A stretch of DNA of 64,000 bases from Moniliella sp. 'wahieum' (Eukaryota), in assembly GCA_003971905.1 (NCBI GenBank), contig RSEE01000004.1, positions 868,001-932,000 on the forward strand. Reading direction: 5' to 3'. The position numbers were made by a program, and so were the translations under genes. How positions within the stretch are numbered: position 1 is the stretch's first letter; the number at the start of each line of letters is the position of its first letter. Below, in pieces: positions 23,243 through 57,600 of this stretch. The notes beneath the pieces were generated by a model. The model did no database searches and was not told the DNA's origin. It saw only the letters and a program-made list of their open reading frames with translations.

Positions 23243-23456
23243 TGTTGGGACCCGTGGTCCCGTACTTAGGCCAAGGGTCTCATCACCCTTCACCCCTGAT
23301 TTGTCCTCCAAGCCTCCACGTGTATACTCAGGCTTGTTTGAACCCCTGTCTCTAGGTGTGGCACAAGGCTTAGACCTAACCACCACCATCGCGATTGCAT
23401 TGCTCTACATCTCCAGAGGTTCTTCACCCAATCCCTTGGGTTCCTCCGGTCTTACA
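23243..23456 (+). repeat. 3' LTR of copia copy 1
   Basis: Follows the G-rich PPT; followed by TSD CTTAC. Confidence 0.95.
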
Positions 23457-24322
23457 CTTACAAACCGGCTGTAGTGTGATGAGGGTGTGGATACGAGTGA
23501 GAATGGTATAGGCATGAGTGTGGGCGATGAACCATCTCCCAATGAGACTCTTCATCAGTAAATTCCTTCCACAGTCCTCACAACTCTTGTTGGTCGTCTT
23601 GGTACCCCATATACCATCCGTGCGTCGTCATGGCCACATGGGGACGAATGGCCCTCTTGAGTGTGTCCCTGGAACTTGGCATTGTTATCGTATCCCTCTT
23701 GCCCCGACAGTTTCAGAAAGTCATTTTCCCTGTGTGTTCCACAACAGGCGTTGCGATTCGCTAGGGTACCACCTTCCGGTAGGTATCCCCATGGCCGCGT
23801 GTGTGCCTGAACCTGCCCACCCCCCCATGATATGCGACTCATCCATTGATCCCATACTATGCCATTTGTCTCTAATATCCACATTTGGGTCATATAGTTG
23901 TGCATTGGGGAACCACACAGATGCATCTCTCCCAGAGCGTGAGGAAGCAGTAACCTATATGTCATTACTATGCGATTCACAGAGTCGTTATTGGGTGGAC
24001 CTATTAACCCTTTTTTTCCCTCGTCCAATCCCAATCTCGATTTGGTGCGTATTGGGACACACTCTTGGTTGTCTGTTCCATACTTGTTGCAAGCAAATGA
24101 AAGAGCAAGAAGACGATGCTGGGTGGCCCGTTGCCCTTCAACAATCGCTGGCTCACTCTCTACCACGCTGCTCGCCGTTCATCGACCTCTTTATTCATTT
24201 TCGGTCACTACCATGGGCCCTCAAAGGAGAAGCGCACGGGACCTGTAGGTGGAGCTACCAGTATCAATCATTTAAAAAAGCCTTGCAGGGGAAAGTATAG
24301 GAACCCAATAAGAGCTTAGAGA

Positions 24323-37361: not shown

Positions 37362-37578
37362 TGTAAGACCGGAGGAACCCAATTGATGGGTGAAGAACCT
37401 CTGGAAATGTAGAGCAATGCAATCGCGATGGTGGTGGTTAAGGTCTAAGCCTTGTGCCACACCTAGAGACAGGGGTTTCAGACAAGCCTGAGTATACACG
37501 TGGAGGCTTCGGAGGACAAATCAGGGGTGAAGGGTGATGAGGCGCCTTGGCCTAAGTACGGGACCACGGGTCCCAACA
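37362..37578 (-). repeat. 3' LTR of copia copy 2
   Basis: Reverse complement of the family LTR, adjacent to the PPT (ccccccc on +). Confidence 0.95.
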
Positions 37579-40500
37579 CCCCCCCGGGCCAAGGGAACGA
37601 AAGAAGCCCGTTGGCCATCAACAAAGAAAAGTAGAAAGGGGATCAGCGCGAAGAAAGAGAAGCCAAATCGAAATTGTTACGCGCAGAAATGATCTTGGGA
37701 AGAGAAAGAGTTTGGTGAACCAGTCAGGGAGATGGTGTGCACCTGGAGTGTAGTGGACTTTAATTTCGCCTCGGTGGATGCGTTTCCCGCACCTCGTGGT
37801 ACGAGACGTCAATCTCCCGTATTTTGCCTAGGCTGCCGAGCTTTTCGGCCAACGCTTTGGCAGCGGTGTTGTTAACAAAGAGCTCAATCGGGTGATTAGC
37901 CTTGCAGACACCAAGTTCAAACAGTATGTTGCGAATGAATAGAGCCTCTCGAAGGCCATCTCCCATGGCTAGGTATTCAGATGCTGCTGTGTTGCTCACA
38001 CCTTGATTTTGGGACTTGGAGCCCCAGGATACAGGCACACCGAAACAAAAACAACATGGCCCGAAACGGAGTGAGAGTTGCTCTTGTCTGATGCAAAGGA
38101 GGCATCGGTGTCAGCTCGAGTAGAGGCGAGATCGGTTGGGTGTGAGGCACAAAGAGTAGTCAGACGTACCGGCGAAGAAACGTAATAGGTCCTCCGCTGC
38201 GCGTCGGTGGGCGGCGGACGGGTCGTCCATAAACCGCGCTAAAAAGGTAGCCGCAAAGAGGGCATCAGGCCGGGACATACGAGCCGCCCACAAGCTGGAT
38301 CCGACAATAGAACGGTAGGCACGGTCGTCTCGAGTGGCACGCTTTTCGTGTTCGGGTCGCTTGGGGCGGAAGTTGGTGGCCGATTGGAAGGTAGCGGGGC
38401 CTGAGGTGATATGTCATGCGGCAAGCGTCTCAGCGATGATTTGGGTTGGCTGATGTACAGTCGTCCATCGATACGGTCGTATTGGCAGCCGAGATGGAAA
38501 CGTAGGGGGCCGTTGGACTTAATTTGGATGCTGCGCCTTAATTCCACTAAGAATTCATCATACGCTTCTTGGGACCGACACGCGACCAAAAAGTCGTCAG
38601 TGTGGACGGCGATTAGGATCAGGCCAAGAGGTTCGGTGCGACGTATGAACAGGCAAGGCTCTGATTTTAGGCTAGTGAAGTGGAGTCGGTCGCAAAGGAA
38701 AGTGCGGAGCCAATCTCCAAAGTTGGCCCCGCTCTGGTGCAGGCCATAGAGACTTTTCTTGAGTCTCCAGCAATGACCGGGCGCTTCTGGGAAGAAGGGG
38801 GGTGGTCGAACATAGACGAGCTCGTTGATATCGGCATAGAGGTAGGCAGCTTCCACATCGGCAGAAAATAAGTGGAGGCCATCAGCTTCGGCCAACGCAA
38901 TTAGCGTGTTGACGGCAGCAGTACGAACGGCAGGAGCAAAAGATTTCGCCCATGTGCCAGGAACTTGCCGGTGCCCTCCCACAACGTAGCGGGCACGGTA
39001 CTTGAGGAAGTTAGCATCCGCATCCGTCTTAGTACCTATGACCCACATGCCGGGAAGGGGTTTGATCCCTGGGGGGATGGGTACAACTTCCTTCACGTCA
39101 CGCTCGTCAAAACGCCGAAGCTCGAGGCGCATTGCCTCGAGTACGCCATCAAAGGCAGGGTGACCCACCAACTTCTTGATGTTCTTGGGGGCCACCGGGA
39201 CCCCATCGGTGGTCAGTATGACCTCGGTGTCACTTGCCGCGGATTCGATTGCGAGTGCAATGGGGGGCGAGCTTGGCTCCGAAGCAGGTAGCATGGATGT
39301 GTCCGGCGCTGGTCCGAAAATACTCACCAAAGCCTGCATTCCTAGGGCGGAGAGGGCGGCCGGGTTGCCAAAGATGCTAGGGGCCTTGTTGACGAGCAGG
39401 GAAAAGGTGCCATCGCGCAAATTGTCGTTGGCTGGAATGGACAGGTCGAGGGGTGGAGCGTTGATACGCGCTTGGCGAACGGGATTGCGACGCACGAGTG
39501 CGGGGACGGCTGTATCGGTCAGGGGCACGGTCACGGGGGCGAGCGTGTCGGTGGGGGAGAGAGGGGAGGGGGATAGGGCGGGAGAGGAAGGGGAAGTGGA
39601 AGAGGGAGGGGAAAGCAGGACTTGGTGGCCAGTGTCAACGGCATCTTCTGTGATAGTTTCATTTTCTTCGGCTTGCTTTGCCTGGCGTTGTGCCATGCCT
39701 GCGGGGTCAGATGCAACAGGTTGGGGGGATACATGTGGGGGGTTGGAGTTGGTGGGAGTGGGGCCAGGCTCTGAATTCTCATTTTCGTTGGCTTGAGCCG
39801 GGCGATGTGCCTCTGTTTTTCGTTCTTTTAATTTTCTTTTTCCATGGGGGGCATTGTCTTTCTTACCATTAGTATCGCGGGTCAGTTCATCTATCGCAAA
39901 ACGCACACGCCGGGGTGGGGAGCTGTCTGACTTCCCACCAGCACCCATTTCTCCGCCCCCCCGCACCTCTCCGCCACCAGCAGGGACAAGGGGGTCCAGA
40001 TGAAAGTGCGTGGGATATTCGGTGGTGTACGGGACATGCGTCCAGGTGGACGGCTTTTTCCAACGGAATCCAACTTGGCCGTCGTCCTGGTGGATGGCAA
40101 AGAGCCACCCCTTCGAACCGCGGCCGTGCCCGTAACCCACCAACATTGCTGGGACGGCCCGCGGACCAAGTTTGCCGCCCTCGCGTTGGTTGGGCAATAG
40201 GTGCAGGTAGGCAAGAGTGCCAAAACCGCGCATGCGAAGGGAGGGTTTGAAGCCATGGTACCGGACAAATCGGCTGTCCCCACCCAGTGCTTTCGGCGGC
40301 GACTGGTTGTGTGCATATGTGGCCGCCAACAAGCTGTGTTCCCACCACTCGTCGGGAGTCAATCTGTTGGCGATTACCATGAGTCGAGCGCGATCCGTAA
40401 TCGATCTTATGGCGCGTTCGGCGACCCCATTGGACGCACTTTCGCCAGGATTGGTGCGCTCGCTCACTACTCCCAGCTCGCAGTAAAACTCGTCCATTGC

Positions 40501-42688
40501 GGTGGTGAGTTCAGGCGCATTGTCAGAGCGGACCGTCTGAAGGGGGCGGTCGGGATGTTGGCGATGCTCGCGCCGGATGAAGGCTTGAAGTTCGGCTGTG
40601 GCATCACCCTTGGACACCAGGGGTAGCGTCCAGGTATACCGCGTAAAGTCGTCGACAATGATAAGGGCGTAAGTATGACCCCGCCGCCTTGGCGGGATAT
40701 GTCAAGGACGTCGAGGTGGAGGAGAGAGAAAGGGCGAATGGTTCGGATTGGGCGTCCAGTCGTGGCGTGGGGTGGGGCAGTGGCTCTGCTTAATGCGCAT
40801 GGTGCACAGTGCCACGAGGACCGGACTAAAGCGATGTCGCCACTGTTGACCCGTTCGAATGCTGGGTCATCCGACGTGAGGGATGAAAGTTGATCTAGAG
40901 GTGCATGATTCCATCGGATGTGGGCGTTTTTCACCTTGACCAGGGTTGCATCAAGGTTGAGTAGCGAAGTGGCGCTGTTGGCTGTGGCTGTCGTATTGGG
41001 CGCCAGAGTAAGGGAATAGCTTGAGTCGGCGGCGAGACGAAAAGGTTCGCCGTGTCGTCCGAGATAGAGACCATGGCCACCTGGAGGGATCCAGCTGCCA
41101 ATGCCTGCGATAGATAGATGGTAAGCGCTGAGCAGGTTGGTCGGGAAGGTGGGGCAGTACAAGCTGCCGGGTAGGTGGATGCGGATAGGGGCTCCGTTCT
41201 GGGTTTGAATGTACATAGAGATGGTGCCAATGCCTTCAGTGTATGCGATCTGTCCGTTTGCCACTGCTATGGGCTCGCGGTGTGGACGAAGATTGATAAA
41301 CGCACTTCGTTCATTGAATACGGATGGTCTCGCACCTGAATCGTGTTGCGCAGGGAGGTTGGCTGGCTTGGGTGGTGTAGTGGCTGCCATAGGGGTTACT
41401 GCATGGGCAGATGAGGTGGTCTGGGCTGTCGTAGCCGGCCGGCTAAAGTGGCCGCCACGTTGGCCACCACGGTGACTTCCTCTGTACCCGCTGCCACCTC
41501 GGCCTCGTCCGCGGCCTGTCACCGTACTGCTTGTTTGGCTGTGCGACGTGGCTTCCGAAGGGGCCGTACTGGAGGGAGCTGGGCTTGAACTGGAGGTACT
41601 GCCGTAGTTGGAGCCTTTGAGTTCGCTCACTGCTCGGCGCAATTCGGCGTAGCTGCTGTTACGATGGAGGTGCAACCACCCCTGATCAGTAACGCCTTTC
41701 CGTAGCATCTGTGCTAGACCAATCTCGTCCAGCTTGGACTTGGACGTCATCTCGTACTGGGTTACCGCCACAGTGAACTCATTCAGGTATTGGCGGCCCG
41801 ACTTGGTGCCCATTTTGAGAGTGAGAACCTTTATGAGGATATCACAGATCTCAGTGTCTGAAACGGTGCCGTACAAATCACGCAGAGCATGATAGTATGC
41901 AGACCCTAGAGCCGGCGTGCCATCGCCGGTGATCTGCTGGACGACGTCGGAGTCTATCCACGGGAGTAGAATGTTGGCCAAGTGAGCGTCCAGTTCTGCG
42001 TTATACCCGTCCAGGGCCTTGCCCTGTTCCAGATGCTCACGCGCTCCAGGGATAATCTGGATACGAGGGAGGAAGATCCGGGTCCATAACCAAAACGAGC
42101 TGTTGTTGTGGAAACGCTCGTGGTACGGCACGTTGCTGCGAGTGGCACTACGGAGGAGCTTGTCGGGAGTCAAAGCCCACGGGTTGTCGTCGACGGCCGG
42201 AGTTGACGATAAGGCACCTTCGTTCTTGCTAGCATTGGGTGGATTCTCACATGATAACATGACAATGGCTTCTGTGGTCGTCTTTTCGCTGTACCCAAGC
42301 TTGATACCAGTGTCCTGTAGCTGTTTGAGGGTGATGTGTTCGGGAAACAATTTGAACATGTTGCGAATGCGGTCGGCGAGGGTGGCGACGTCGTTCGCGG
42401 TGTTGTGGGCCCACGGGGGTGGGTTGAGGTGTAGGGGTAGATTCACGCGATGGTGTCAGCGGCGGGGAGGCGTGGTCAACTCCGACGGGAGTGGTGCTCT
42501 CTTCTGCTCCGGCAGTTGGTGAAGTAGGGGTTGAGGAGTTGAACCAAGACTCCTGAGTCTGAGAGCTCATGATGCTTGCCATTAGCTTACGCAGTTCGAG
42601 CAAGCGCTTGTGGATAGGGCCGGCAGCGGAGGACCGAAGAGTGTAAGAGTGGAAGGCTCAGGGCTGAGCGTCAAGAGGATTGTAACTC

Positions 42689-42905
42689 TGTAAGACCGGA
42701 GGAACCCAAGGGATTGGGTGAAGAACCTCTGGAAATGTAGAGCAATGCAATCGCGATGGTGGTGGTTAAGGTCTAAGCCTTGTGCCACACCTAGAGACAG
42801 GGGTTCAGACAAGCCTGAGTATACACGTGGAGGCTTCGGAGGACAAATCAGGGGTGAAGGGTGATGAGGCGCCTTGGCCTAAGTACGGGACCACGGGTCC
42901 CAACA
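42689..42905 (-). repeat. 5' LTR of copia copy 2
   Basis: Near-identical to 37362..37578; PBS at 42674..42688. Confidence 0.95.
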
Positions 42906-43498
42906 AACTGCCCTTCTCCTCCGCAATCGGTTCGGGATCGACGATCCTTTAAAGCACACATCTGGCCTGTGGTTGTGCTCTGTTGTGCCCTCGATAACTT
43001 TTACCGTGAGAGCTTGTCTTGATCGCAATCGGGTCGATGAGGCCGACAGATGATCGATGGAGAGCGGCCGCTCATTAATCATTCCCGCAACCTGAGGACA
43101 CCCTGGGGTCGGAAAGGCCCCTGGCGGGGTATAACTTTTGTTGGTCTACTGGGAGAAAGAGCCTGTCCGCGCGTAAGAGCTATCATGCATCAACATGTTT
43201 CAAGCTTCAACTTCACCGCCGTCCCATCCAACTCTCTTCCTCCTCTCGACGGCACCTCTGGATAGGATGGAATACGAATGTCATAGTTTGGCTGATCTCG
43301 CTCCCATTTCCAATTTCTTCGTCTCGAGCGTCTCGCTCCTTCCTGTTCCTTCCACTTCGCACCATGTCCTCTGTTCTTGCTTCTTCCCCACGAACGATTG
43401 CTACACCCTTGGCCTAGTCCGATCCTGGTCTCCCTCGCCTTAGCCCCGACTGTGACATTATCGTTCGTCTAACCGTCAACAGGCGAGCCCGACCAGAG

Positions 43499-46400
43499 AT
43501 GTCCTCGATCCACGACAACCCCCCTGACCCCAGTAACCCTAGCGCGCCGCAACCCATCGCGCGGCGCGGCCCAATCCGACCCCCGTCCGACCCCCCCTCT
43601 GACGCTCCGTTCGACGACGATGGCCCGGAGTGGTTCCACCCGGCTGGCCCCTCTGGACCCCCCCATGCAGCTCCGTCTGTTGCGCCCGCGCCCCCGGGGT
43701 ATACATTGGCCTCCGACCTGTCCGGGCTGGGCCTCGAGGCCGCTCAGCGTCGGGTCGATGAGGCCCGCAGAATGCGCCAGCTTCTGTTGACGGAGGCCCG
43801 GGAAAATCAGGCCTACCTTGCAGCCCAGGAGGACCAGCGCCGCGCTTTCGAGGATGAGCAAGAGGCGAAGCGCCGTGAGCACCGCCTCCGTCAGCGGCGG
43901 GAGGAGGCGGCGCTTGCCGCGGAAGAGGCCCGGTTGGCCGCCTCGGTACGGGAGGCTCAAACTGGCGTGGTGTCCTCGGCCCCCGCCCCCGCTCCCGCCC
44001 CTGGGACTTATGGTGATCTGACTGCCATCCCGAACACGGTGTCGAAGAGCCTAAGATGTTCGAGCCCGTTCGTTTCCGCCCGTCGTCTGGTGCGAATCCC
44101 AACTCTCGTGACCGGGTCCAGGCCCAGCACGTCGTCACCTCCTTCGAGATTTACGCGCGCGTCGCCCTCACGCATATGGGCGCGGCGGCATGGATCGACC
44201 GCTTCATGGGGCTGCAGGGAGAGGCCCTCACTTGGGTCGAGCAGTTCGGCTCGGAGGTGGCCCTTCCCCTGGAGGCGCGCACCACACCCGCCCTCCAGTC
44301 TTGGCCTGCGTTTCGCGCAGCTTTCCTGGAGCAGTGGGGCGAGCGCAACCCGGCGCTGAAGGCGTTTGAGGAGTTTCGTCGTCTTCGGCAGACGGGATCT
44401 GCAGCGGACTATTCCGCTACGTTCACGGTTCTGCTGCGTCGCTGGAACCCCAACGCGTCGGATGAGGACCGCTACTATTGCTTTCTGTACGGCTTGAAGC
44501 CGCGGGTGCGTGACGCAATCGCCTCCCGCGGCGAGTCGGCTCACTTGGGACGGATCAGTTTCGAACAACTGCGCACAGCGGCCATTGACATCGACCAATC
44601 GCAATCGCTGGGCGCTCATGGTACCGCCATCTCTCCGGGATCGGGCGGCAATCATTGGTTTCGGCCCTCGTCGCCCGAAGCGGAGCCCATGGACCTCAGC
44701 GCAGTCACCGCCACCGTGAAGCGGCGGCCCGGCGCACCGAGCGCCGCGCTCAAGGCGCAGTGCCGTGATCACCATATGCCTTCCACGACTGTACCCCGGC
44801 CACAGCCCCAACTCCCGCCCAAGCCCAAGCCCAGCCCAAGCCCCAAGCCCAGCCCCAGCCCCAACTCCCGCCCAAGCCCCAACTCCCGCCCAAGCCCCAA
44901 CTCCCGCCCAAGCCCCAAGCCCAGCCCCAGCCCCAAGACCAGCCCCAGCCCCAAGACCAGCCCAAGCACCAAGACCAGCCCCAGCCCCAAGACCAGCCCC
45001 AGCACCCAGACCAGCCCAAGACCAAGACTACGCACCAGCACCAGCACTCGCCCGGGCCCCGGCCCAAGTCCACCTCCTCATCTAACCCATCTCGCCCCCC
45101 TCTGTCAACTCGATTCCTTTTCCCTCCTCGGTTCCCTCCCGGCCCTGCTGGCGCGGCACCTCAAGTACTGGCGGAGCCCATGTCCGAACGTTCTGCCGCC
45201 GCCCTCAAGCTCATGGCGGCGGACCCCGAACACCGGTGGGGAGCGAGCGTCTGCCGACGAGATTCGACAGCGCATCCGCCAACTCGTGCCTCGTGACCCT
45301 CGTTGGTCCTTGCTACGGCTCCAAGCCCACCTCCCCATGCTTTGACGGTCCGCGACGGTCTTTTGTGGCACGGAAACCAGGTCTACGTCCCCGGCGACCG
45401 GCCGATCCGCGCTGCCATTCTCCACCAAGCCCACGACTCGGCATTGGCGGGCCATGAAGGGCGCGACAAGACGTTGGCCCGTGTCCGCGCTCAATATTGG
45501 TGGCCCCGCCTGTCAGCCGACGTGTGGGCCTACGTGCGCTCGTGCGACCGCTGCCAACGGACCAAAGCGCCTTGCCACCAACCCGCCGGACCCCTTCAGC
45601 CCCTTTCCCCTCCCCAAGGCCCGTGGACCCACTTGACGATGGACCACATTACCCAGCTTCCCCGATCCAATGGTTACGACGCGATTCTGGTGGTGGTGGA
45701 TCGTTGTACAAAATGGGCCACTTCATTCCCGCCCACACGACGGACACTGCGCCCCAGCTCGCACGCCAGTTTGTACACCATGTCTTTCGCTACCATGGCC
45801 TTCCCCGGGATCTGGTGAGTGATCGGGGACCGACCTTCACAAGCCACTTCTGGCAAGCCTTGTGTGCCGACTTGGGCATCAAGTCGAGCCTCAGCACCGC
45901 GTCCCACCCCCAGACGGACGGCCAGACTGAGCGACTCAACCAGATCCTCGAACAGTACCTCCGCTGCTACCTCGACGAGCAGCAGTCCAACTGGTTCGAC
46001 CTCCTCCCCACGGCCGAATTCGCCTACAACTCGTCCTCCCACTCGAGCACCCACCAGTCCCCCTTTGTCCTCACCTATGGTTACTCTCCCCGGGGGAGTT
46101 GGAGCCCTCCACTTCGCCCGTGCCCGATGCTGCGTCATATTGGAGGACTTGCGCTCGGCCCAGGCGGTGGCCCGCCGCACGCTCGCCGCGGCCCAAGACC
46201 GCTACAAGCATTATGCCGATCAGCAGCGCACCGAGGCGGCTTCCTTCACTGCTGGCCAGCCTGTCTTGGTCCGTCGGGACGGCTATGTGGCCAGCCAGCG
46301 GCCTTCGGACGGCCTCGACTATCGCTACCTCGGCCCCTTTCCCATTGTCCGCGCCGTGGGCCGCGCCGCATACCAGGTCCGCCTCCCCGACTACTACACC

Positions 46401-46755
46401 TCCATGACGTGTTCCATGTGTCCCGCTTGCGAGCCTACACCCCTGGTGACGTGGTCCCTGCCCGCTTGATTGAGCCCCCGCCTCCTCTCCCCGAGTATGC
46501 TGATGATGGTGCGGTTCATCACGAGGTTGAACATGTCCTCGACTCTCGCCGCAAGGTCGTGGTGGCCGCATTGAGTACTTTGTTCACTTCCGGGGCTATC
46601 CTGTCCACGAGCGGGAGTGGGTACCCGCTGCGGACATGTCTCATGACGCCGAGCCAGTGGTCCGTTTCCACGCCCTCTACCCCGATAAGCCTGTCTCCCA
46701 TGCCCGCCGACTCGCCCTCTCTCGCCTCCGTCGCCGCCCGGGAGATGAGGTCTGA
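43499..46755 (+). CDS. Gag - low-complexity linker - integrase - chromodomain polyprotein of the gypsy element (frameshifted)
   Basis: ATG 43499; fragments 43499.., 44056.., 45303.., 45497.., 45819..; chromodomain [29 protein letters not shown] at ~46519-46630; stop TGA at 46753. Confidence 0.85.
44797..45070 (+). repeat. C-rich 6/18-bp minisatellite inside the gypsy element
   Basis: Tandem CCCAACTCCCGCCCAAGC and CCCAAGACCAGCCCCAGC units; open in all three + frames (PSPK.., PAPA.., QPQ..). Confidence 0.9.
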
Positions 46756-47125
46756 AAGGGGCAATGTCATAGTTTGGCTGATCTCGCTCCCATTTCCAAT
46801 TTCTTCGTCTCGAGCGTCTCGCTCCTTCCCTGTTCCTTCCACTTCGCACCATGTCCTCTGTTCTTGCTTCTTCCCACGAACGATTGCTACACCCCTTGGC
46901 CTAGTCCGATCCTGGTCTCCCTCGCCTTAGCCCCGACTGTGACAACGAATATCATTGCCTCCTGTGACTTGCCTTTCATAAAACCAACACTGTCGAGTTG
47001 GGATAGCCACCATTGAAGCAGGTCGGTGCGATGAATCTCCTGTGTTGCTAATTACGACGAGTTAGGGATCCTGGGGCCTTACAATGGATGCGTGACGGCA
47101 GGGAGATGAAAAAGTGAAAAAGATG

Positions 47126-47231
47126 TGCACTCGCCGGGATTCGAACCCGGGCAACAACTTTTGTTAGCTCACTGTGATGGAACCCCAAATGGAATGGGAA
47201 AGTTGCATCTTAACCACTTGATCACGAGTGC
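47126..47231 (-). tRNA. tRNA-Gly(CCC) with 34-nt intron (47161..47194)
   Basis: Acceptor GCACTCG/CGAGTGC+A, D-loop AAGTGGTTAA, anticodon stem CAACT/AGTTG with loop TT-CCC-A^A, T-arm CCGGG-TTCGAAT-CCCGG; two T5 Pol III terminators just downstream (~47109-47121). Confidence 0.92.
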
Positions 47232-47382: not shown

Positions 47383-48935
47383 ATGGCGGACACGTCTTTA
47401 CTGGAGGTTGCACGTGCGACGCACGAGGAGATTGAGCGATGCGAGCAGGCTATCGTCGACATCCTCTCTCTGCACCCTCCTCTCCGTTGGGCCCGTCTCG
47501 CTCTTGGCTCACAAGCTGGCTCTCGAGCGCGATCACACCATCTCCCACTTGCTCGACCGTCTGGTCCAACGCAAAGCCCAGTTGCGTGAATTCTATGCTG
47601 ACGAGCCCGAGCGCGCACAGGAGTTGTCCCAGCTTCAGAGTGAGGACGAGTTCCACAAACGTCTGGCCAAGCTGCAAGAGTTCCACGCCAAGTACCCAAG
47701 CCGCGCCAGAGGCCATCCAGCTTGACCCCACTGCCCTGGAGGCCGGAGATGTGGACCGGCTCTTCTCGGGGGAAGAGATGGTGGGCAAGTATGTTGACCT
47801 GGTACTGCAGCATGAACTTTTCACCAATTTGAAGGGGGTGCGCAAGGTGCCGTATGTGACGTATCTGGGACAGTTTGACCAGCTTGCCGAGCCGACGGTG
47901 CCGACGCAGACCAAGAAGACCGAGGCGTACCGGAAATACCTCACCAGTCTGCGGGACTACCTCAACTCATTCCTGCGCAAAACGCGGCCGCTCTCGGATG
48001 TGGATGCAATTGAACGCGAGGCGGAAGCGCGCTTTGCTCCCCAGTGGGACGCAGGCCAGGTCGAAGGATGGAGCAAGTTTGGTCCCGTCTCCTCGTCCGG
48101 GCAGGCGGGGGGGGAGGGGATTTGGTGCGCTGCATGCCGCAAGATGTACGCCAAACAGACAGTGTACGACGCTCACCTCAACTCCCCCAAACACCACAAG
48201 GCGGTTGCCAGGTTAGCCCAGTCCGCCACAGACGATGCCAGCGTCCAGGAAGCAAAAGGCGGGGACAAATGGCGTCATGTGGCGTTGCTGGAGCAGTATG
48301 TGGGGGCCTATGCTCACGCCCTCGAGGATGTGCGGCAAGAGACCCGGTCAAACATTGAGCGTCGCGCGGCGCTCACCGAGCGGGAGCGTGAAGCCGAAGC
48401 AGAGGCGGCCGAGGCTGCGCTGCATGCTACGGGGGAGGAAGCAGAAGAGGCTGTGCGGGAGGATGATCCTGAGGAACGGCTGTACAATCCTCTGCGTCTT
48501 CCTTTGGCTTGGGACGGCAAACCGATCCCCTACTGGCTGTACAAGTTGCACGGACTCGGGGTCGAGTTCAAATGCCAGATCTGCTCAGATTATGTTTATC
48601 AAGGCCGACGGGCATTTGAGCGGCACTTTCAAGAGGCACGCCATGCGTTTGGCATGCGTGCGCTCGGCCTTCCTAACACCAAGCATTTCTTTGAGATCAC
48701 CGAAATTGCGGACGCGCTAGCTTGTACGTCCCCATTCCCCTCACTCACCATGATGATGCTAAGGATACTAACATGAATGCAGTGTCTGAGAAATTGAAGA
48801 AGCAGGGTCGCGAGCTGGCCGAGGAACACAACGAAGCAGAAGAGGTGGAGGACGAGGAAGGCAACGCCTACTCCCGCAAAACATGGGATGATGAAGCGCC
48901 AAGGACTGGTCGAACTGCATTGCAAATTCAAGTGA
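47383..48935 (+). CDS. PRP9: Splicing factor 3A subunit 3 (Prp9/SAP61)
   Basis: LLEVARATHEEIERCE, FSGEEMVGKYVDL, IWCAACRKMYAKQTVYDAHL, YNPLRLPLAWDGKPIPYWLYKLHGLGVEFKCQICSDYVYQGRRAFERHF, EEVEDEEGN..KRQGL; intron ~48724..48782. Confidence 0.95.
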
Positions 48936-51764
48936 TCCCCACATATGGGAGGTGATGGGCTGTACTATTGCAGAACGTTCAACGTATATTCAAGGGAAGA
49001 TGGGAAGCTCAGACGGTGAAAGAGGCAATCCCAGATACCAGCATCATGAGAGGAACACGAGACTAACGCGCCAAGGCCGCAACAACACAGCCAGTAGTGG
49101 ATTCGTAGTCACTGCACTCCCTCCTATTCATTCGTTGATCAACTCCGAGTCTGGAAGGGGACAAGGGGCCCGAGCCAGGCATGACTACCAAGGTGGAAGC
49201 AGAGTCTGATGCGGCCTTGGATGCCGGAATAGGCACAGTGGCAGGGTGAAGCGTATGGCTAGGGCGGCTGGAAGCGTGAATGAGAAAGTAACAAAAGGCT
49301 TGGAAAGGAACAGGAGCACCAGAGACGCCAGAAAACTGTAGCAGGTGGTGAAGCACGAAGCATTGCGCCCGTTGCACCCAAACCATTCAAACCGGAGCGA
49401 CAGGGCCCACACATGAAGAGCATCACATGGAGCTCGAACCAGTCCGCACGATGTAGTCGCACTCCTCGCCAGCGATGCACGGGTTATGGCCAAATCAACG
49501 TAGGGAAAAGTGTGCGCCTTCCGTTGCGGGAAGACGACAAGCGCAGGAGGGACATACGTTCGGTGGTTGGACATGCACAGAAACAGCGTGCGCGCCATGC
49601 ATTCGTACTATCAATTCGATGTGTTCTCAATGAGCAGACTCATGTCGGGTCACAAGTAGAGAGTGGCATCGCAGAAAACGGTGCTACAGCCCCATTGATC
49701 TGCACCTCATTTGCGCCGCTTCTCTCTGTTCAGATCCCCTTCACTTTCTCCGGCTTAAGCCTACCGGCTTACCCCTCCCCCATCCGACGCCACCACCTGG
49801 CACTCGCCACACCGAAGAGTAAACAACTCATTTGGGACGAGAAGGCTGAGCTGGCCGCAGCGCATTTCCACATAGCATGTGATGGGCATCGTCATTACTA
49901 GCTGCCCTCCCTCCTTTTGGTCCCAAGCAATAGGCGCACGTCGTTGGATCGCCAGGACAGACAGTGAGAAAACCTCGCGTTTTGCTACTGATCTTCTCAT
50001 CAGTCTTCTTCAGCCCGCCCTGTTAAGATGCAAGATGAGTCTCATTCCTGTCCCCCTTTTATGCGAGGCCACACGCAAGTTGCCGCCTCGGTCGCGGGCC
50101 GACTGATGGCATCGGGGGAAGATGTGCGTGATGTGAGGTCCAAGAGTCCCGTTTCCATTCTCATTCCCTCTCTTCCTTTCTCGCCTTCCACACACAGCTG
50201 AAACCTTGGACCGCGGGCCGTTTGCAGGATGCCCTACGACGGATAGGGGGGGGGAATTGGACTCGGGCCTCGGGTCAAAGGGTGGCTAGTATGCTTCTCT
50301 GATGGAAGGGTTTGGGAAACGCTTAGTACGCGGGACAGAATTTCAAACGCGGATGTGCGGCGCGTGAAGAAGATTGACGAGAACGAACAACCAAAGAGAA
50401 GTGAGAGTGGGAGCGCGAGAAGAAATGGCTGCCAGATTGCGACGTCAGACCTTGGGGGTGTCAGGATCTCAGGCTATCGTGGTGCGGGTGATGTGGGCGA
50501 GGACAGGCGTCGCTCAAGACAGCCGCGCTGGGCGGGGCAGATGGTGTGCATGTGACACCTTGGGCTGGAAGGATGCCATGTCCAGCTGTTGCATGGTGTC
50601 GAGCCGAGGCATTGTGCAATGGCATGCGACATGTGAATGTGAGCCTGATTATTGCCTCATCGAGGCCGAGTGGGCCGCCTGGCGGCTGAGCCGCAGCGCT
50701 CCGCCTGAGCGCTTATCCGGGCCTCTCGATCGCTTCGATCCTCAGCGATGCATGATCCGTGCCGGAGAGGGGAATGAACAGTTGAAACAGCAGGCGGGGG
50801 GGGCCTCGGGCGCTGGATTCGCGATTACGTACGGGTGGTGATAGGGCGTGGGTACCTGCATGCCGCCCCGGCCGGCCCGCACGTGCGTCTGGTCGGGGCA
50901 CTGGCCCGCAGGGGGCGGCGGGTGCGGTGGGCGGCGGTGGGTGCCTGGGGTGGTGCCTGGCGCGGGCATTGTGTCTGCAGGCGGGGGTGGGTTTGGCGTT
51001 TCGTTTGTTGTGCAGAGCAGTGCCTGCGCGTGCGTTCGTGCAGCGCTGGCCCCGGGGTCACATACCGGCCGCTTCGTGGGCGGGCGCCGAGCGCTGAGCA
51101 GCTGCGCTGACTTGCCTGTGCGGCAGGCGGGACGCCCTGGTGGGGTGCTCCACACTGCCGCCCCATGCGTGCTTGAGCCCGCGGGGTGCAGCTGGCGGCG
51201 CTGTGCGCACTGCTCGCTCCCCCGATTGCAAACCACAGTGTGCTGCCCTGTGCTGCCCGGCGCCGCCCCTCGGCTGCCTGGCCCTGCCCGGCACGGAAGG
51301 AGCGCTCTTGTGCCAGGGTGCCCGCACGGGGGCTGTGCAGCCGCCGTCGTTGGGGGGCAGCCGACTGCCCAGGGCTGGTTGAGTCTCGAGTAGCGACTTG
51401 CCCCACCGGGCCTCCGGGAAGGAAGCAGACAAGGCATCGCCCGCTGCCGTTTCCTTTTTTTTCTCCCCCCTCGCCACCACCTGTCGCCCACCCATCCCCC
51501 CCACCTTTCTTCTTCTTGTCTTCACCTCGTCGGATCCTTGATCAGTGTAGCTGGACTACACCTCGCCCGCACGTCTTTTCATCTCGTATGTTGTGTCCTC
51601 TCGGCGCTCAGCCGGCTCAGTGCTCCCAAGTGTTTGAGACGCCCTCCCCCTCAGTCTTCGTATCCGCCCGCCCCCGTTGTCTCCTTTCCCCTTCGTCCAG
51701 CCGTCATTTCCCCATCATCTTTTACTGTGCTCACCTCCCTCTTCGCCACTCACGTCCATCCGTC

Positions 51765-52740: not shown

Positions 52741-54693
52741 TGGGTGTGTTACTTTTGTGGCACTCTTTCCCCCCACTTCCTGTGCGCCGGCCGCATGCCA
52801 CCCTCCCCCCCCACCCCTGCTTGCCCCTGCGCACCCTCTATTTTTCCCTCTCTCCCTTTGGCTCCGCTGGCCGGATTAATGCGTTTGCCGTCATGTGGTT
52901 GTGTTCCTGCTGATTTGTTGCCTGGTTTTGGCCCTAATGCGTGGAGGATGTGTTGCCCAACCCTTGAGCTGTGATCGAGATGAACGATGTTTTGTTGTAT
53001 ATACATGTTCATTTGGGCTATTATGAGTGAGGACGAGATCTACAGAGAGAGAGAAGATGATGGGTCGATTCCAAGAGAGGAGCCCGCGCGAGGCAGAACA
53101 TAGAGAGTCGGACAGAACAGCACCAGGTGTGATGGAAGGTTGAAGGTTGAACGCACGTGGGAGGCAATGACCTGATGGAGAAATGGAGCAGTTCCGTACC
53201 CCAAATAGAGCGAATCGGAGCTGCTACACTGAGCCTGGGGGCACTGGGCTGGGCCGTGGAGATTGAACCTACAAACATGGTCCGAACGGGGACGGGCCTC
53301 TTGCATCCATGCGATTGATGCTCTATGTGCCACGGGGACACCGAACGCAAGCCAAGACCCACATGCGAACGGACTCATAGCGAGCCCGCAAGAGGGGGAG
53401 AGTGATACCTTTTAAGCCCTGTTTTGCTCATGTGCTTATGGTTGAAAGAAGGGCTGGAGGGGGGACTGTACTATTCGTCCGTACTCGACTCCGTATTATA
53501 GAGAGAGGTAAACAACCCACTCTGCCTCTCCTGCTTCGGATGCCCACTTGCGCCACGAAACGCGCCTGCAGGTCCTTATGCGTAGACCGTCCGAATCCCG
53601 TTCTGGGATGTGAGGCGAATGACGTGAATGACGGACCGGCAAGCGAGGTGGATTTCTGCGATTTAGATGAGGACGAGAGACGAGAACCAAACGGCGCCAC
53701 TCACTCCCACGTGCGGACTTGGACGCACCAGCGGAATGCAGTGGGAAAGGACTGCCCAGGGCGTCTTTGGCCGTATGACAGCGACGATAGATGACCAACC
53801 TATGACACGTGAGATGTGAGATGTGAGATGCCAATGATTAGTGAGCTCGATGAGCGTTCGCTCAGCCACGCATCTCCGGCCACTGTGCAGGGACATGTTG
53901 AAAGCGGTTGTGGGTTGCTCCTATTGTGTTGTCACTAGTCACTACCATGGTCAACTGCCCTTACGAGCAGGCGCACAGATGGCCAGGTAGGGAGAGGGTG
54001 TGGGGGGGACATTGCATGCAGTGATGGCAGCAAGCGTGGCATCCGTTTCTTTCTGGCCGCCGAGCCGGTGTGGATGCGGGTGGGGTGGCGACGTTGGCGA
54101 CGCTGGAGATGGACATGTGGACAGGGCGGAGGGCTGCTGCTCCCGGGAGCGAACAGTGGGGAGGCCGGGGTAGGGTTAGCGGATCGCCCATGGGATCTGG
54201 ACATTACCATGACATGCATGACATGCATGCCGCACTGGATGCTGGCGGGAGGTGCGACGTGGAAGGCTGCGCTGGACGTGGCACGAGGCCAGGCAGGCCA
54301 GGCGCTGCGCTGTGGATTGCAGAGCGCGGCGCCGGCCGGCGCCAGAGCGCGTGACACGGCTGCCGTGCGTGGCCGTGCGGGGCGACGGCTGGTGCCGACG
54401 GCCGGCGCAGCGGTGCAGCACACGTGATGGCTGGCAGGGCGGGCGTGTCACATGCACGTCACAGCGCACGGCGCCAGTTGCGCGCCGCCGCATCGGCTGC
54501 TGGTGGGACGGGGTGCGGGATGCTCCGATCAGCGGTCGGCCCCACTGGCTGGGCTGTCTGCTGTCTGCTGTCTGCTGCGCGCCTGCTCGCCTGCTCGCCT
54601 GCTCTGGCCTGGCCGGTGGGCTCGCGGTGCTGCTGGCCTTCGCCCCGCTGCGGTCCAGCGTCCCCACCATCCGCCTGCTCCTTCTCGCCTCAC

Positions 54694-57600
54694 ATGCCCA
54701 CAGGCACTGCGGCCGAGCGGCGGATCCGTCTGCCTGCTGCGCCCTCCTCTGCGTCTGCCTCTGCTTCCGCCTCTGCCGCTGCCTCTGCCTCTGCCGCTGC
54801 CTCCTCCTCGCCCGCCTCCTCAGCCCTGGGCGGCTCCCTGGTTGCCCACCTGCGCCGCTCCACCCGCCTCCACCCCAAACCCTCCGCCACCCTGTCTGCC
54901 TCAGCCGCTGCGACTGCCTCGGGGCCTGCAGCCGCCTCTGCACGCACTGCCCCCGCGGCCCCCGCCTCGCTCGCCCCGCCCTCGGCCCAGTTCGACTCCC
55001 TCTACACCCCGTCCCCCTCCATCTCCCACTGGCAGCTGCCTCCCCTCAGCCCCGACGCCACCCCCCTCTCTTGTCCCACCCCGACCCCGGCGCCACCACC
55101 CTCACGCCGCCCCTCTTTCCCGACCACGCGTCTCTCAACAGCAGCCACAGCCGCAGCCCTACCCCCAGCCCCCGCCTGCGCAGCAGCAGCCTCGGCACCC
55201 TCCTCACCGCCACTTCCTCCGCTACCAACCTCGTCGGTGGCCCCGCCGCCTCCTCGCCTGCCTCCCCCAACCTCGCTGGATCTGTCTCCGCGGACGGCGC
55301 CCTCGCCGACCGATCTGCTCCCCCTCTGACCGCCCATCACCACCAAAAGTCCCGCTCCACCTCCACCGGCCCAGCCGGGGACGTGCGCTTCCCCATCTCC
55401 CTCTTGCGTTCTCCGCTGTCCCCCCATTGGACGACAGGATGCCGGGTTCGCTCATGCATGCGCCCGCGACAGCGCCTTCTTCTCCCTCCGTTGCTCCTGC
55501 CCCGTCTTCGTCCCCAGCCGCGCCTCTTGCCGTTCCGCCCTCCACCTCGTCCGACTCGATCGTCATCATCTCCTCGGCTACCCCCACTCCGGCTACCTCC
55601 CAAACTCCAAGCGTTGTTCTCTCCGATGAACCGCCCTCGGGATCGGCACCCCTGCCCGCACCGGCACGACGCACTGCAGGCGGGAGCGTTCCGCCTTCCT
55701 CCTATTCACCCGCGCTTGCCACTCCTCGTGCAGGCTCGGTTTCCTCGGGAACACCCAGCTTCTACTCTGTCCCACCAGCAAGCGCTGTATCTCACACCAC
55801 TCTTCTGACCTCTCTGAACCAACCGGGTCGATTGTGGCGCAGGCGCCACTGGCCGTATCTGGCATGGTGCCCCAGCCCAACTCGGACCCGGGTGAGACGG
55901 CTGGCTCAGGTGCCCCGCCTCCCGGCAGCCCCGTTTTTTGCCTCTTACCCATAGCAGCCCGCGCCCACTCCACCATGCGCATTCAGCCTCAACTGTCTTG
56001 GCGCTTTCGCAAGACGATACAATTCTGACCGACGACACGGTCCCCATCACCGGCTCCTCCACATCAGCTTTTGCTGGTCCGCACAGCGCTGCGCACATGC
56101 GCACCTCCTCCAATGCCACCTCCATCACTTCGTCTAGCACATCCAAGGGCGCTTCGCTTGTCGGCGCGCTGGTGCGTCGGTTTAGTGTCGACTCGACCAC
56201 CCTCTCTGCCCGCCTACGATCCGTTTCCGCTTCCGACGATCGGGCGGAACGTTTGGACCGATTGGAGCGCCCCATTACTGCTGCTTCGGTGCGCCAACCT
56301 TATCCCAGCCCCAGCTCGGGCCCCAATTTGACCCTGGAAGAATCCAGGGCGGTCCCGCATCTGTCCGAACCAGCCGACTTGTCAAGGCAATCCTTGGACG
56401 CATGGACCGCGCTTCCATCCCCATGGCCGCGTAAGCGCAGAGACGTTTCAGCAATTGTGCGAGCTTGAGGTGCGTATTGTTTTTCCGTCTGATGTGATGG
56501 CGAACCTAACCCATTCTTTTGCCTGCGTTTCTTTTCTAGTTTGGCATTGCGCTGTTGGTGGACCGGGCAAAGGATAGTGTGGCTGCGGCACAGGAGATGG
56601 CCACCTTTCTTAGGCGGCGTGCTCAGTTGGAAGACGAATTTTCGCGTGGCCTTGCGCGGGCAGCCAAGGCATCCGGCGAGACACTCTCCGCGCTGCTTGG
56701 GACGCGCAGCAGGCGAAAAGAGGAGCCTTCGTTGTTGGGGGTGTTTGCGGCGCACGACCGCGTTGCCTCTGCGCGCGCCCACACGGCACGGCAGGTCCTT
56801 TCCTTCGCTGAGCGCCTGGCCAACGTTGCCCGCGACGGCGATCGGAAGGCCAAATTGCTACGCGAGACGAATTGCAAACACGAACGACATCTTGCCGATG
56901 CCGAGACGGCAGCGGAGAAGGCGCGTGCGCGCTTGGATCAGCTGGCCGAGGAGTACGAGCGGCTGAGGTTGCTGCTCGGTCCCGAGGGGCGTTCGTCGCC
57001 TTTCGAGGGAGAAGACGGATCCTTGCCCCGTACGATACAACTTCTGCAGCTTCGGGCGCAGGCAAGTCAGCGACTCGCGGGACAGCGAGTCGGCCTCCGA
57101 AAAAGCTGGCTACGCGCAACCTGTTTGGGTCCAAATCCCGTTCCCTCGCCCAGCTGGCCAAGCAGCACGACGAGCTGCGGGGCAAATTGCGCAGTGCGAG
57201 TGAGGTAGCGGAGCGCGAGGCGCGCACCGAACGTGACCTGAAGCAGACGTACTTTGACGTGCACCTTCCCCAGCTCGTCATGGCGCTGTTGGATGCGACG
57301 GATCAAGTGGATCACGGGGTCCGCGAGGCTCTCGCGTCCTATGCGCAGTGTCTGGCACAGCAAGCCCAGAACGAGACCCATCAAGCCGACGGCAGCCAAC
57401 CGTTCGCCTTGCCTGCCCTGCTCCAGAAGTGGGAAGAGACCATGGACGTACAGGCTTACTTGGCGCATTGGCAGCCGCCTCCTACACCAGGGAGGAAAGA
57501 GCCACGTCGAAAGATGAAATTGTCCACTGTGTCCCATGCCCCTCTCGGCGCCGGCAGGGCCAGGAGGGGAGGATGAGCCGACGATGCGAACCCGTCTGTT

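What the first reader, a model, noticed from the sequence alone, without database searches (positions are those of the whole stretch)
43279..46944. RT-less chromovirus: structurally intact 3.7 kb LTR element encoding only Gag, integrase and chromodomain
Seen: near-identical ~180-bp LTRs, perfect ACGAA TSD, PBS and PPT, a capsid Gag, and an integrase with HHCC, DDE, GPF and chromodomain. Only ~500 bp of low-complexity sequence separates the Gag end (EPMDLS, ~44700) from the integrase lead-in (~45260). I find no D(S/T)G protease, YxDD RT or RNase H motif there. Known: gypsy pol order is PR-RT-RH-IN, and the non-autonomous types I know (TRIM, LARD, TR-GAG, Morgane, BARE-2) keep other subsets. Inference: a recently mobile parasite that borrows PR/RT in trans but supplies its own capsid and targeting integrase, possibly as one uncleaved Gag-IN fusion.
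Basis: partly seen in the sequence, partly recalled or inferred. Interest (0 to 1): 0.78.

Follow-up and report, generated by a model that had tools for sequence, protein, structure and literature searches.

The report
Internally deleted chromovirus retrotransposon copy
This is a young copy of a fungal-type gypsy retrotransposon that has lost its protease, reverse transcriptase and RNase H genes; such deleted copies are a known kind, and nothing here shows that it spreads as a family.

Summary
The anatomy is real. LTRs of 179 and 180 bp (TG..CA) differ by 0 substitutions and 3 single-C indels. They are flanked by a perfect ACGAA duplication. Inside lie a purine-rich tract, gag, and an integrase with H2C2, core, SH3 and chromodomain parts. 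No protease, RT or RNase H was found by Pfam or by tblastn with four full-length relatives. A 390-bp filler (44756-45146) holding an 18-bp minisatellite sits in their place.

"Structurally intact" does not hold as assembled: gag and integrase are split by at least eight frame changes. These may be assembly errors. A 96-99% identical copy in a food-metagenome run has an extra base at each covered break in the integrase body. The essential SF3a60 gene next door is frameshifted too.

The primer site looks like the Tf1 self-priming type, not a tRNA site.

Whether this is a propagating family could not be tested, because no genome was held. The metagenome contigs run on unlike the window at both filler edges. 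That suggests the filler is not shared.

Best reading: a young ΔPR-RT-RH derivative that depends on a helper. Non-autonomous LTR families keeping integrase or chromodomain remnants are already in print. Interest is low to moderate.

The parts
43274..43278 (+). 5' target-site duplication ACGAA
   Evidence: same 5 bases at 46945-46949
43279..43457 (+). 5' LTR, 179 bp, TGTCA...TGACA ends
   Evidence: 0 substitutions and 3 single-C indels against the 3' LTR
43390..43398 (+). LTR-internal word complementary to the primer site. Inferred 5' end of the transcript (start of R) in a Tf1-type self-priming scheme
   Evidence: 9-nt exact complement, reached by 0 of 2000 shuffled LTRs; these 9 bases pair in the minimum-energy fold
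43460..43468 (+). Candidate primer-binding site of the self-priming type, 2 nt after the LTR
   Evidence: No TGG start; only 5 nt of complement to the neighbouring tRNA
43499..44768 (+). gag: coiled-coil N-terminal part, Retrotrans_gag capsid domain, PMDLS motif, degenerate Zn-knuckle position. Frame change near 44043 and possibly 44716; TGA at 44766 in the frame the metagenome copy implies
   Evidence: (extra G behind 44043, extra C behind 44716 in the metagenome copy)
44756..45146 (+). 390-bp filler in place of PR-RT-RH. No match to any protein family or to relatives. Metagenome contigs stop matching at 44755 and start again at 45147
44804..45047 (+). C/A-rich minisatellite, 18-bp unit x 12.6, open in all three + frames (proline-rich)
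45153..45307 (+). RH-IN linker, or integrase lead-in, homologous to P0018 residues 662-709. Two frame changes
45402..45569 (+). Integrase H2C2 zinc-binding domain
   Evidence: E 3.6e-23
45590..46090 (+). Integrase catalytic core, with the D, D, E residues read by eye in the translated pieces. Frame change at 45708
46263..46400 (+). SH3_Tf2-1 (GPF) C-terminal integrase domain. Frame changes at 46139 and 46393
46490..46758 (+). Chromodomain and C-terminal tail, with a stop at 46756-46758. Frame change near 46553
   Evidence: Chromo E 3e-05; 63% identity to the P0018 tail
46740..46764 (+). Purine-rich tract (PPT) abutting the 3' LTR
46765..46944 (+). 3' LTR, 180 bp
46945..46949 (+). 3' target-site duplication ACGAA

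Best explanation
This is a real, recently inserted, internally deleted copy of a Tf1/sushi-like Ty3/gypsy chromovirus in a eukaryotic, probably fungal, genome. The whole protease, reverse transcriptase and RNase H block, from the Zn-knuckle position of gag to the RH-IN linker, is missing. A 390-bp filler containing a proline-coding minisatellite sits in its place.

The copy keeps everything needed in cis: LTR ends, a self-priming primer site and a PPT. It also keeps gag and an integrase-chromodomain gene. It can therefore move only if a full-length relative supplies PR, RT and RH.

Shown here: the anatomy, the absence of PR/RT/RH, the youth of the insertion, and the existence elsewhere of 96-99% identical LTR, gag and IN sequence.

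Inferred:
- The deletion arose by template switching or recombination in low-complexity inter-domain linkers. This happened either in the reverse-transcription round that made this copy or in a recent ancestor.
- The many frame breaks are largely assembly indel errors.
- The element is a single or low-copy derivative rather than a proven family.
For: Anatomy and absence of PR/RT/RH:
- Element anatomy and TSD.
- No PR, RT or RH family at E<=1 in 9 of 9 frames.
- 4 of 4 full-length relatives align only downstream of RNase H.
- A relaxed search of 44650-45320 finds only the lead-in and low-complexity matches.

Youth:
- The LTR pair has 0 substitutions.

Related copy in metagenome run X1:
- Contigs cover the LTR, PBS, gag (43916-44755) and IN (45147-46892) with few differences.
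- One 945-letter contig lies on the window only over its letters 1-845, ending at 44755.
- One 225-letter contig lies on the window only from its letter 46, starting at 45147.
- Both therefore run on unlike the window exactly at the filler's edges.
- A flank contig (46945-47152) has 25 further letters that do not lie on the LTR end.

Frame breaks as assembly error:
- 12 of 12 listed indels in X1 are extra bases relative to the window (10 single bases, 2 triplets; 9 more were not shown).
- Extra bases at 45708, 46091, 46139 and 46393 coincide with the tblastn frame switches.
- A frame walk using those places is free of stops from 45153 to the stop at 46756.
- The LTR pairs of this element and of the neighbouring copia differ only by single-base indels, 4 of 4 differences.
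- The essential SF3a60 gene changes frame near 47699 with no room for an intron.

Self-priming:
- A 9-nt complement reached by 0 of 2000 shuffles.
- In the fold, these 9 bases pair; z -2.1, and 6 of 200 shuffles fold as well.
Against: - The copy number in the host genome is unknown: no genome is held and the window has one copy.
- The letters of the two metagenome contig tails were not shown. It is therefore not shown that they carry PR or RNase H sequence. A different deleted form or a chimeric contig would look the same.
- The neighbouring copia has two long unbroken frames (820 and 662 aa). Assembly indel noise is therefore not uniform, and some frame breaks in this element may be real decay.
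- At the lead-in (about 45229), the listed single extra base alone does not give the frame that homology requires. A third gap of that contig was not listed.
- The 9-nt self-priming duplex is shorter than the 11 nt I recall for Tf1, and the fold z-score is modest.
Confidence: 0.55

Rival explanations
1. One reading: a propagating non-autonomous family. It makes its own Gag and its own chromodomain-integrase, possibly as a Gag-IN fusion or by reading through one stop, and takes PR, RT and RH from a full-length helper.
For: - The insertion is young with an intact TSD.
- All cis signals are kept.
- The deletion edges fall in inter-domain linkers and leave both remaining genes whole.
- After the metagenome-type corrections, gag and the IN lead-in share one frame with a single TGA between them.
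- LTR, gag and IN sequence 96-99% alike exists in another organism, at higher contig depth (2.75-8.85) than the flank (2.1). The tool warns that depth is no copy number.
- A precedent of this kind exists: mouse IAP 1-delta-1 elements, whose deletion makes a gag-pol fusion that acts in cis (PMC6466679, passage read).
Against: - No second copy with this junction was seen anywhere: window; exact-word scans.
- The metagenome contigs leave the window's sequence at 44755 and 45147 instead of crossing the filler.
- The Zn-knuckle position of gag is degenerate compared with the closest gag relatives.
- Without PR, the Gag and IN made by the element would depend on the helper for cleavage. The frame across the filler is not reliable in this assembly.
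Confidence: 0.2
2. Post-insertion decay: a full-length element inserted here and later lost 2.5-3 kb by a DNA-level deletion or slippage at repeats. The frame breaks are real mutations of a dead copy.
For: - Many frame changes are present.
- A minisatellite sits at the junction.
- The filler is not shared with the metagenome copy.
- The copia next door is much less broken.
Against: - 0 substitutions between the LTRs, against 3 indels. That pattern fits sequencing error better than age.
- An essential host gene carries the same kind of break.
- Every covered IN break is a single missing base that the metagenome copy has.
- The filler's unique parts (44756-44803 and 45048-45146) are not explained by a simple one-breakpoint deletion.
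Confidence: 0.2
3. Assembly artefact: the real locus holds a full-length element and the assembler collapsed it at the minisatellite.
For: - The assembly is indel-noisy.
- The metagenome contigs diverge at both filler edges.
Against: - A collapse at a repeat would keep the parent's sequence on both sides of the repeat. Yet the unique filler parts on both sides of the minisatellite are exactly what the metagenome contigs do not match.
- No reads of this strain were available to test it.
Confidence: 0.05

Closest known systems
Tf1/sushi-group chromoviruses (Ty3/gypsy with a chromodomain integrase; Tf1 of fission yeast as type; features recalled from memory)
   Same: - Short LTRs with TG..CA ends and a 5-bp TSD.
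- gag with a Retrotrans_gag capsid.
- Integrase order H2C2, DDE core, SH3/GPF, chromodomain.
- A primer site complementary to an LTR-internal word instead of a tRNA end. Self-priming as an alternative to tRNA priming is described in PMC2864245 (passage read).
   Different: - No PR, RT or RH, so the defining RT phylogeny cannot be applied.
- The Zn knuckle is degenerate.
- The closest proteins are only 67% (IN core) and 39-42% (gag) identical.
Non-autonomous LTR retrotransposons that retain partial coding capacity: TR-GAG, RLG_Quinta/Sabrina in wheat, and sugar-beet families with GAG/PROT or decayed POL domains
   Same: - LTRs, PBS and PPT are kept.
- gag is kept.
- They depend on an autonomous partner that shares the LTR ends and PBS (PMC11302176, abstract and passages read; PMC13570524, passages read).
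- The sugar-beet survey lists 15 families that keep at least one further POL domain, such as RT, RH, INT or a chromodomain.
   Different: - TR-GAG and Quinta lack an integrase.
- The sugar-beet POL remnants are described as partly decayed.
- Here the integrase-chromodomain gene looks complete once single-base breaks are allowed for.
- Family status is not shown here.
Mouse IAP 1-delta-1 proviruses
   Same: [quoted passage not shown] Its own fusion protein helps it in cis (PMC6466679, passage read). This is the nearest known way of working for the reading in which this element is a family.
   Different: - IAP is a mammalian endogenous retrovirus with a 1.9-kb deletion that keeps much of pol.
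- Here all of PR, RT and RH is gone.
- A fusion protein is not shown.

Membership tests
Ty3/gypsy chromovirus | LTRs with TG..CA ends flanked by a short (4-6 bp) target duplication | tested here: met
Ty3/gypsy chromovirus | pol order PR-RT-RH-IN, and placement by RT phylogeny | tested here: not met
   PR, RT and RH are absent. Only the IN end of the order can be seen, so placement rests on the integrase alone
Ty3/gypsy chromovirus | Integrase with H2C2, DDE core, GPY/F (SH3) module and a C-terminal chromodomain | tested here: met
   The rve and Chromo scores are just under Pfam's cutoffs because each domain is split by a frame break. One search shows 46-63% identity to P0018 along the whole integrase
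Tf1/sushi self-priming group | [quoted passage not shown] | tested here: inconclusive
   The 9-nt complement is reached by 0 of 2000 shuffles and pairs in the fold. The transcription start is not known, and the 11-nt figure for Tf1 is recalled
Non-autonomous LTR retrotransposon family (propagating) | Several copies with the same internal structure and different insertion sites and TSDs | not testable with these tools
   No genome is held. There is one copy in the window. The public scans were empty or unrelated
Non-autonomous LTR retrotransposon family (propagating) | An autonomous partner sharing LTR ends and PBS | tested here: inconclusive
   Run X1 holds LTR, PBS, gag and IN 96-99% alike. 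Its contigs leave the window at both filler edges. Their further letters were not shown, so a full-length form is suggested, not seen
TR-GAG | Only one ORF, coding for GAG; no pol domains | tested here: not met
   An integrase and a chromodomain are present
TRIM / LARD | No coding capacity in the internal region | tested here: not met
   gag and IN are present

The most novel reading that the evidence does not exclude
A chromovirus lineage that has shed PR, RT and RH but keeps working Gag and a working chromodomain-integrase. It packages and targets its own cDNA while borrowing only the polymerase and protease from a helper. Gag and IN lie in one frame, separated by a single TGA, which would be a new expression scheme for such a parasite.
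Probability: 0.12. Interest if true: 0.6.

Novelty: new member of a known kind. Interest (0 to 1): 0.3.

Why it matters
If it were a propagating family, it would show that a parasite of a retrotransposon can profit from keeping its own capsid and its own targeting integrase. That bears on which retroelement functions act in cis.

As it stands, it is one internally deleted copy in an indel-noisy assembly. It is useful mainly in three ways:
- As a marker of recent chromovirus activity in this organism.
- As a candidate example of self-priming.
- As a warning that frames in this assembly cannot be read at face value.

Tried and rejected
- **Whole-genome search:** no genome is held for this window.
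- **Sequencing runs:** no RNA holder was listed among the runs.
- **Filler cover in run X1:** no listed X1 piece lies on 44756-44803 or 45048-45146. Runs X2 and X3 touch only the minisatellite, through short low-complexity matches that appear to come from unrelated contigs. Missing cover alone counts for nothing.
- **gag against longer proteins:** none of 3660 candidates scored.
- **gag against near-length proteins:** 2 hits at 37-42% identity among 755 candidates.
- **gag against the representative library:** 123 hits, the best at 39% identity; none were close copies.
- **IN core against longer proteins:** 7869 of 8000 candidates scored, with a best identity of 67%. No same-family protein was found.
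- **Exact-word scans:** metagenome contigs gave 0 and 1, genome contigs 0, viral contigs 0. The single hit, L001, shares only 29 nt with the element. It is an unrelated full-length chromovirus.
- **My guess of an RNase H tail remnant near 45085-45160:** no support in the relaxed tblastn.
- **Filler against the rest of the window:** only matches of 13-21 nt.
- **ARAGORN:** it found no tRNA in the window. Rfam found one.
Full report
**What is there**

The window holds one LTR element at 43279-46944.
- The LTRs run from 43279 to 43457 (179 bp) and from 46765 to 46944 (180 bp). They begin TGTCA and end TGACA.
- They differ by three single-C run-length indels and by no substitution.
- ACGAA stands on both sides.
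- A purine-rich tract abuts the 3' LTR.
- The LTR end words occur only at these two places in the 64-kb window. No other part of the element recurs in the window.

**Coding content**

Pfam was run on nine translated frames covering 43418-46930. It gives:

| Domain | E-value | Note |
|---|---|---|
| Retrotrans_gag | 4.1e-08 | |
| Integrase_H2C2 | 3.6e-23 | |
| rve | 1.1e-06 | 29.3 bits, under the 32.6 cutoff because the domain is split between frames |
| SH3_Tf2-1 | 3.5e-07 | |
| Chromo | 3e-05 | 24.3 bits against a 25.1 cutoff, also split |

No protease, RT or RNase H family appears at E<=1.

Four full-length relatives found with the integrase core were laid on the window by tblastn: P0018, P0024, P0029 and P0072.
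- All four align only from the linker after RNase H to the C-terminal end. For P0018 this is residues 662-1174 of 1190.
- Nothing of residues 1-661 aligns.
- A relaxed search confined to 44650-45320 finds only the lead-in (E 4.9e-05 in that small search) and low-complexity matches.

**What sits in the gap**

Homology to gag relatives ends around the PMDLS motif and a degenerate Zn-knuckle position near 44760-44800. The closest gag proteins, P0121 and P0244, carry a clear CX2CX3HX4C knuckle there. Homology to integrase relatives begins at 45153.

Between these points lie about 390 bp. They include an 18-bp minisatellite (12.6 units, 44804-45028). It is C/A-rich and therefore open in all three + frames. 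It matches nothing else in the window beyond 13-21 nt.

**The frames are broken in the assembly**

gag changes frame near 44043. The integrase changes frame near 45229, 45307, 45708, 46091, 46139, 46393 and about 46553. 'Structurally intact' is therefore not what the sequence shows.

Three observations suggest that much of this is assembly error:
- **LTR differences are all indels.** All four differences within the two LTR pairs of the window are single-base indels, with no substitution. Three are in this element and one is in the neighbouring copia.
- **An essential host gene is frameshifted.** Human SF3A3 residues 37-101 align to one frame of the SF3a60/Prp9 gene just downstream, up to nt 47704. 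Residues 130-232 align to another frame from nt 47763. Only 58 nt lie between, and the DNA there has no room for an intron.
- **A related copy restores the frame.** Contigs of a related copy carry an extra base at each integrase break they cover (next section).

Against a uniform error rate, the copia next door has two unbroken frames of 820 and 662 aa. Some breaks here may therefore be real.

**The related copy in a public run**

One run, a food metagenome coded X1, holds 35% of the stretch's sampled words. Laid at 85% likeness or more, its contigs cover the LTR, the primer site, gag (43916-44755) and the integrase (45147-46892) with few differences. Counts are from table 8.

| X1 piece | Substitutions | Gaps |
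|---|---|---|
| 840 nt of gag | 22 | 5 |
| 599 nt of IN | 7 | 1 |
| 252 nt of IN | 1 | 2 |

- All 12 listed indels are extra bases relative to the window: 10 single bases and 2 in-frame triplets. Nine more were not shown.
- The single-base ones at 44043, 45708, 46091, 46139 and 46393 fall at the frame switches seen by ORF listing and tblastn.
- A frame walk switched frame at those places, without building any changed sequence. It gives stop-free, homologous segments from 45153 to the natural stop at 46756.
- The break near 46553 lies where no listed X1 piece reaches.
- At about 45229, the one listed extra base does not by itself give the frame that homology requires. A third gap of that contig was not listed.

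**What the run says about the deletion**

- The 945-letter gag contig lies on the window only over its letters 1-845, ending at 44755.
- The 225-letter lead-in contig lies on the window only from its letter 46, starting at 45147 (table 8).
- Both therefore continue with sequence unlike the window, exactly at the two edges of the region that has no homology to relatives.
- The letters of those tails were not among the loose ends shown. I cannot say whether they encode a Zn knuckle and protease, or an RNase H tail.
- The simplest reading is that the form in that organism is longer, or at least different, in the middle, and that the window's filler is not shared.
- A flank contig (46945-47152) has 25 further letters that do not lie on the LTR end. 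That fits a site that is empty or different in that organism.
- One contig joins the IN end, the LTR and the start of gag. That is what a collapsed LTR of a repeated element gives in such assemblies. It is not evidence for circles or tandems.
- Contig depths were 2.75-8.85 on the element and 2.1 on the flank. The tool warns that depth is no copy number.

**Priming**

The bases after the 5' LTR do not start with TGG. They share only 5 nt of complement with the neighbouring tRNA.

Bases 43460-43468 are the exact complement of 43390-43398 inside the LTR. That 9-nt match was reached by 0 of 2000 shuffled LTRs. The two words pair in the minimum-energy fold of 43388-43480, at -20.8 kcal/mol with z -2.1; 6 of 200 shuffles fold as well.

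This is the layout of self-priming as I recall it for Tf1 and its relatives. PMC2864245 describes it as the alternative to tRNA priming (passage read). It predicts a transcription start near 43390, which was not tested.

**Relatives in sequence space**

- The integrase core is at best 67% identical to any protein found. That protein is P0018, a metagenome pol with PR, RT, RH, IN and a chromodomain.
- gag is at best 39-42% identical, to gag-only ORFs of about 320 aa.
- No longer protein with this gag was found among 3660 candidates.
- Exact-word scans of the metagenome, prokaryote-genome and viral collections gave one hit. L001 shares only 29 nt and is an unrelated full-length chromovirus, with separate gag and pol frames.

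**How it most likely works**

- Shown: a young insertion that keeps all cis signals, gag and integrase-chromodomain, and lacks PR, RT and RH.
- Inferred: the copy cannot make cDNA on its own. Its cDNA was made either by a helper's enzymes acting on an already deleted RNA, or from a full-length RNA with a template switch between low-complexity linkers in that same round. A DNA-level deletion after insertion is a third route.
- The data do not separate these three routes. The divergence of the X1 contigs at both filler edges speaks against a widely shared deleted form.
- If X1's extra base at 44716 also applies to this copy, gag ends at a TGA at 44766. It would then lie in the same frame as the integrase lead-in, with no other stop between.
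- At the indel rate seen in this assembly, however, the frame across 390 bp cannot be trusted. The Gag-IN fusion idea remains untestable here.

**Comparison with what is known**

- Non-autonomous LTR elements that keep gag are well described: TR-GAG, and RLG_Quinta with its partner RLG_Cereba (PMC11302176, abstract and passages read).
- A 2026 sugar-beet survey reports 15 non-autonomous families that keep at least one further, partly decayed POL domain, such as RT, RH, INT or a chromodomain. Eight of them also keep GAG/PROT remnants (PMC13570524, passages read).
- Mouse IAP 1-delta-1 elements show that an internal gag-pol deletion can yield a very successful non-autonomous form whose fusion protein acts in cis (PMC6466679, passage read).
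- My two literature searches for this exact subset showed no paper naming a gag-plus-integrase-only family. They covered open-access text only.

**Verdict**

This is a real and young ΔPR-RT-RH chromovirus copy: a new member of a known kind. Family status and the fusion-protein idea remain open, and the frames are unreliable because the assembly is indel-noisy.

Noticed in passing
window 47126-47231 (-): A tRNA gene with an intron lies 182 bp from the element's 3' LTR. Rfam RF00005 scores it 51.9 bits; ARAGORN missed it. The gypsy copy and a copia element both sit within 5 kb of it.
   Followed up: partly
window ~37370-42910 (-): A copia element with LTRs of about 215 bp that differ by one single-base indel and no substitution. 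Its pol frames of 820 and 662 aa carry rve, SH3_retrovirus, RVT_2 and Pol_BBD. It ends about 370 bp from the gypsy copy.
   Followed up: partly
window 19531-24300 (+): A second copia-like stretch (Pol_BBD, RVT_2), split over several frames.
   Followed up: no
window 47383-48950 (+): The SF3a60/Prp9 splicing-factor gene changes frame near 47699, and apparently also near 47480 and 48900, without room for introns. This suggests indel errors in the assembly.
   Followed up: partly
window 54001-56000: A stretch of 70% G+C with long overlapping open frames in several phases and no Pfam hit.
   Followed up: no
L001 1-5930: A metagenome contig that is a complete, unrelated chromovirus. It has 130-bp terminal repeats, a gag ORF with a Zn knuckle, and a 1298-aa pol in another frame overlapping gag by about 115 nt.
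   Followed up: partly
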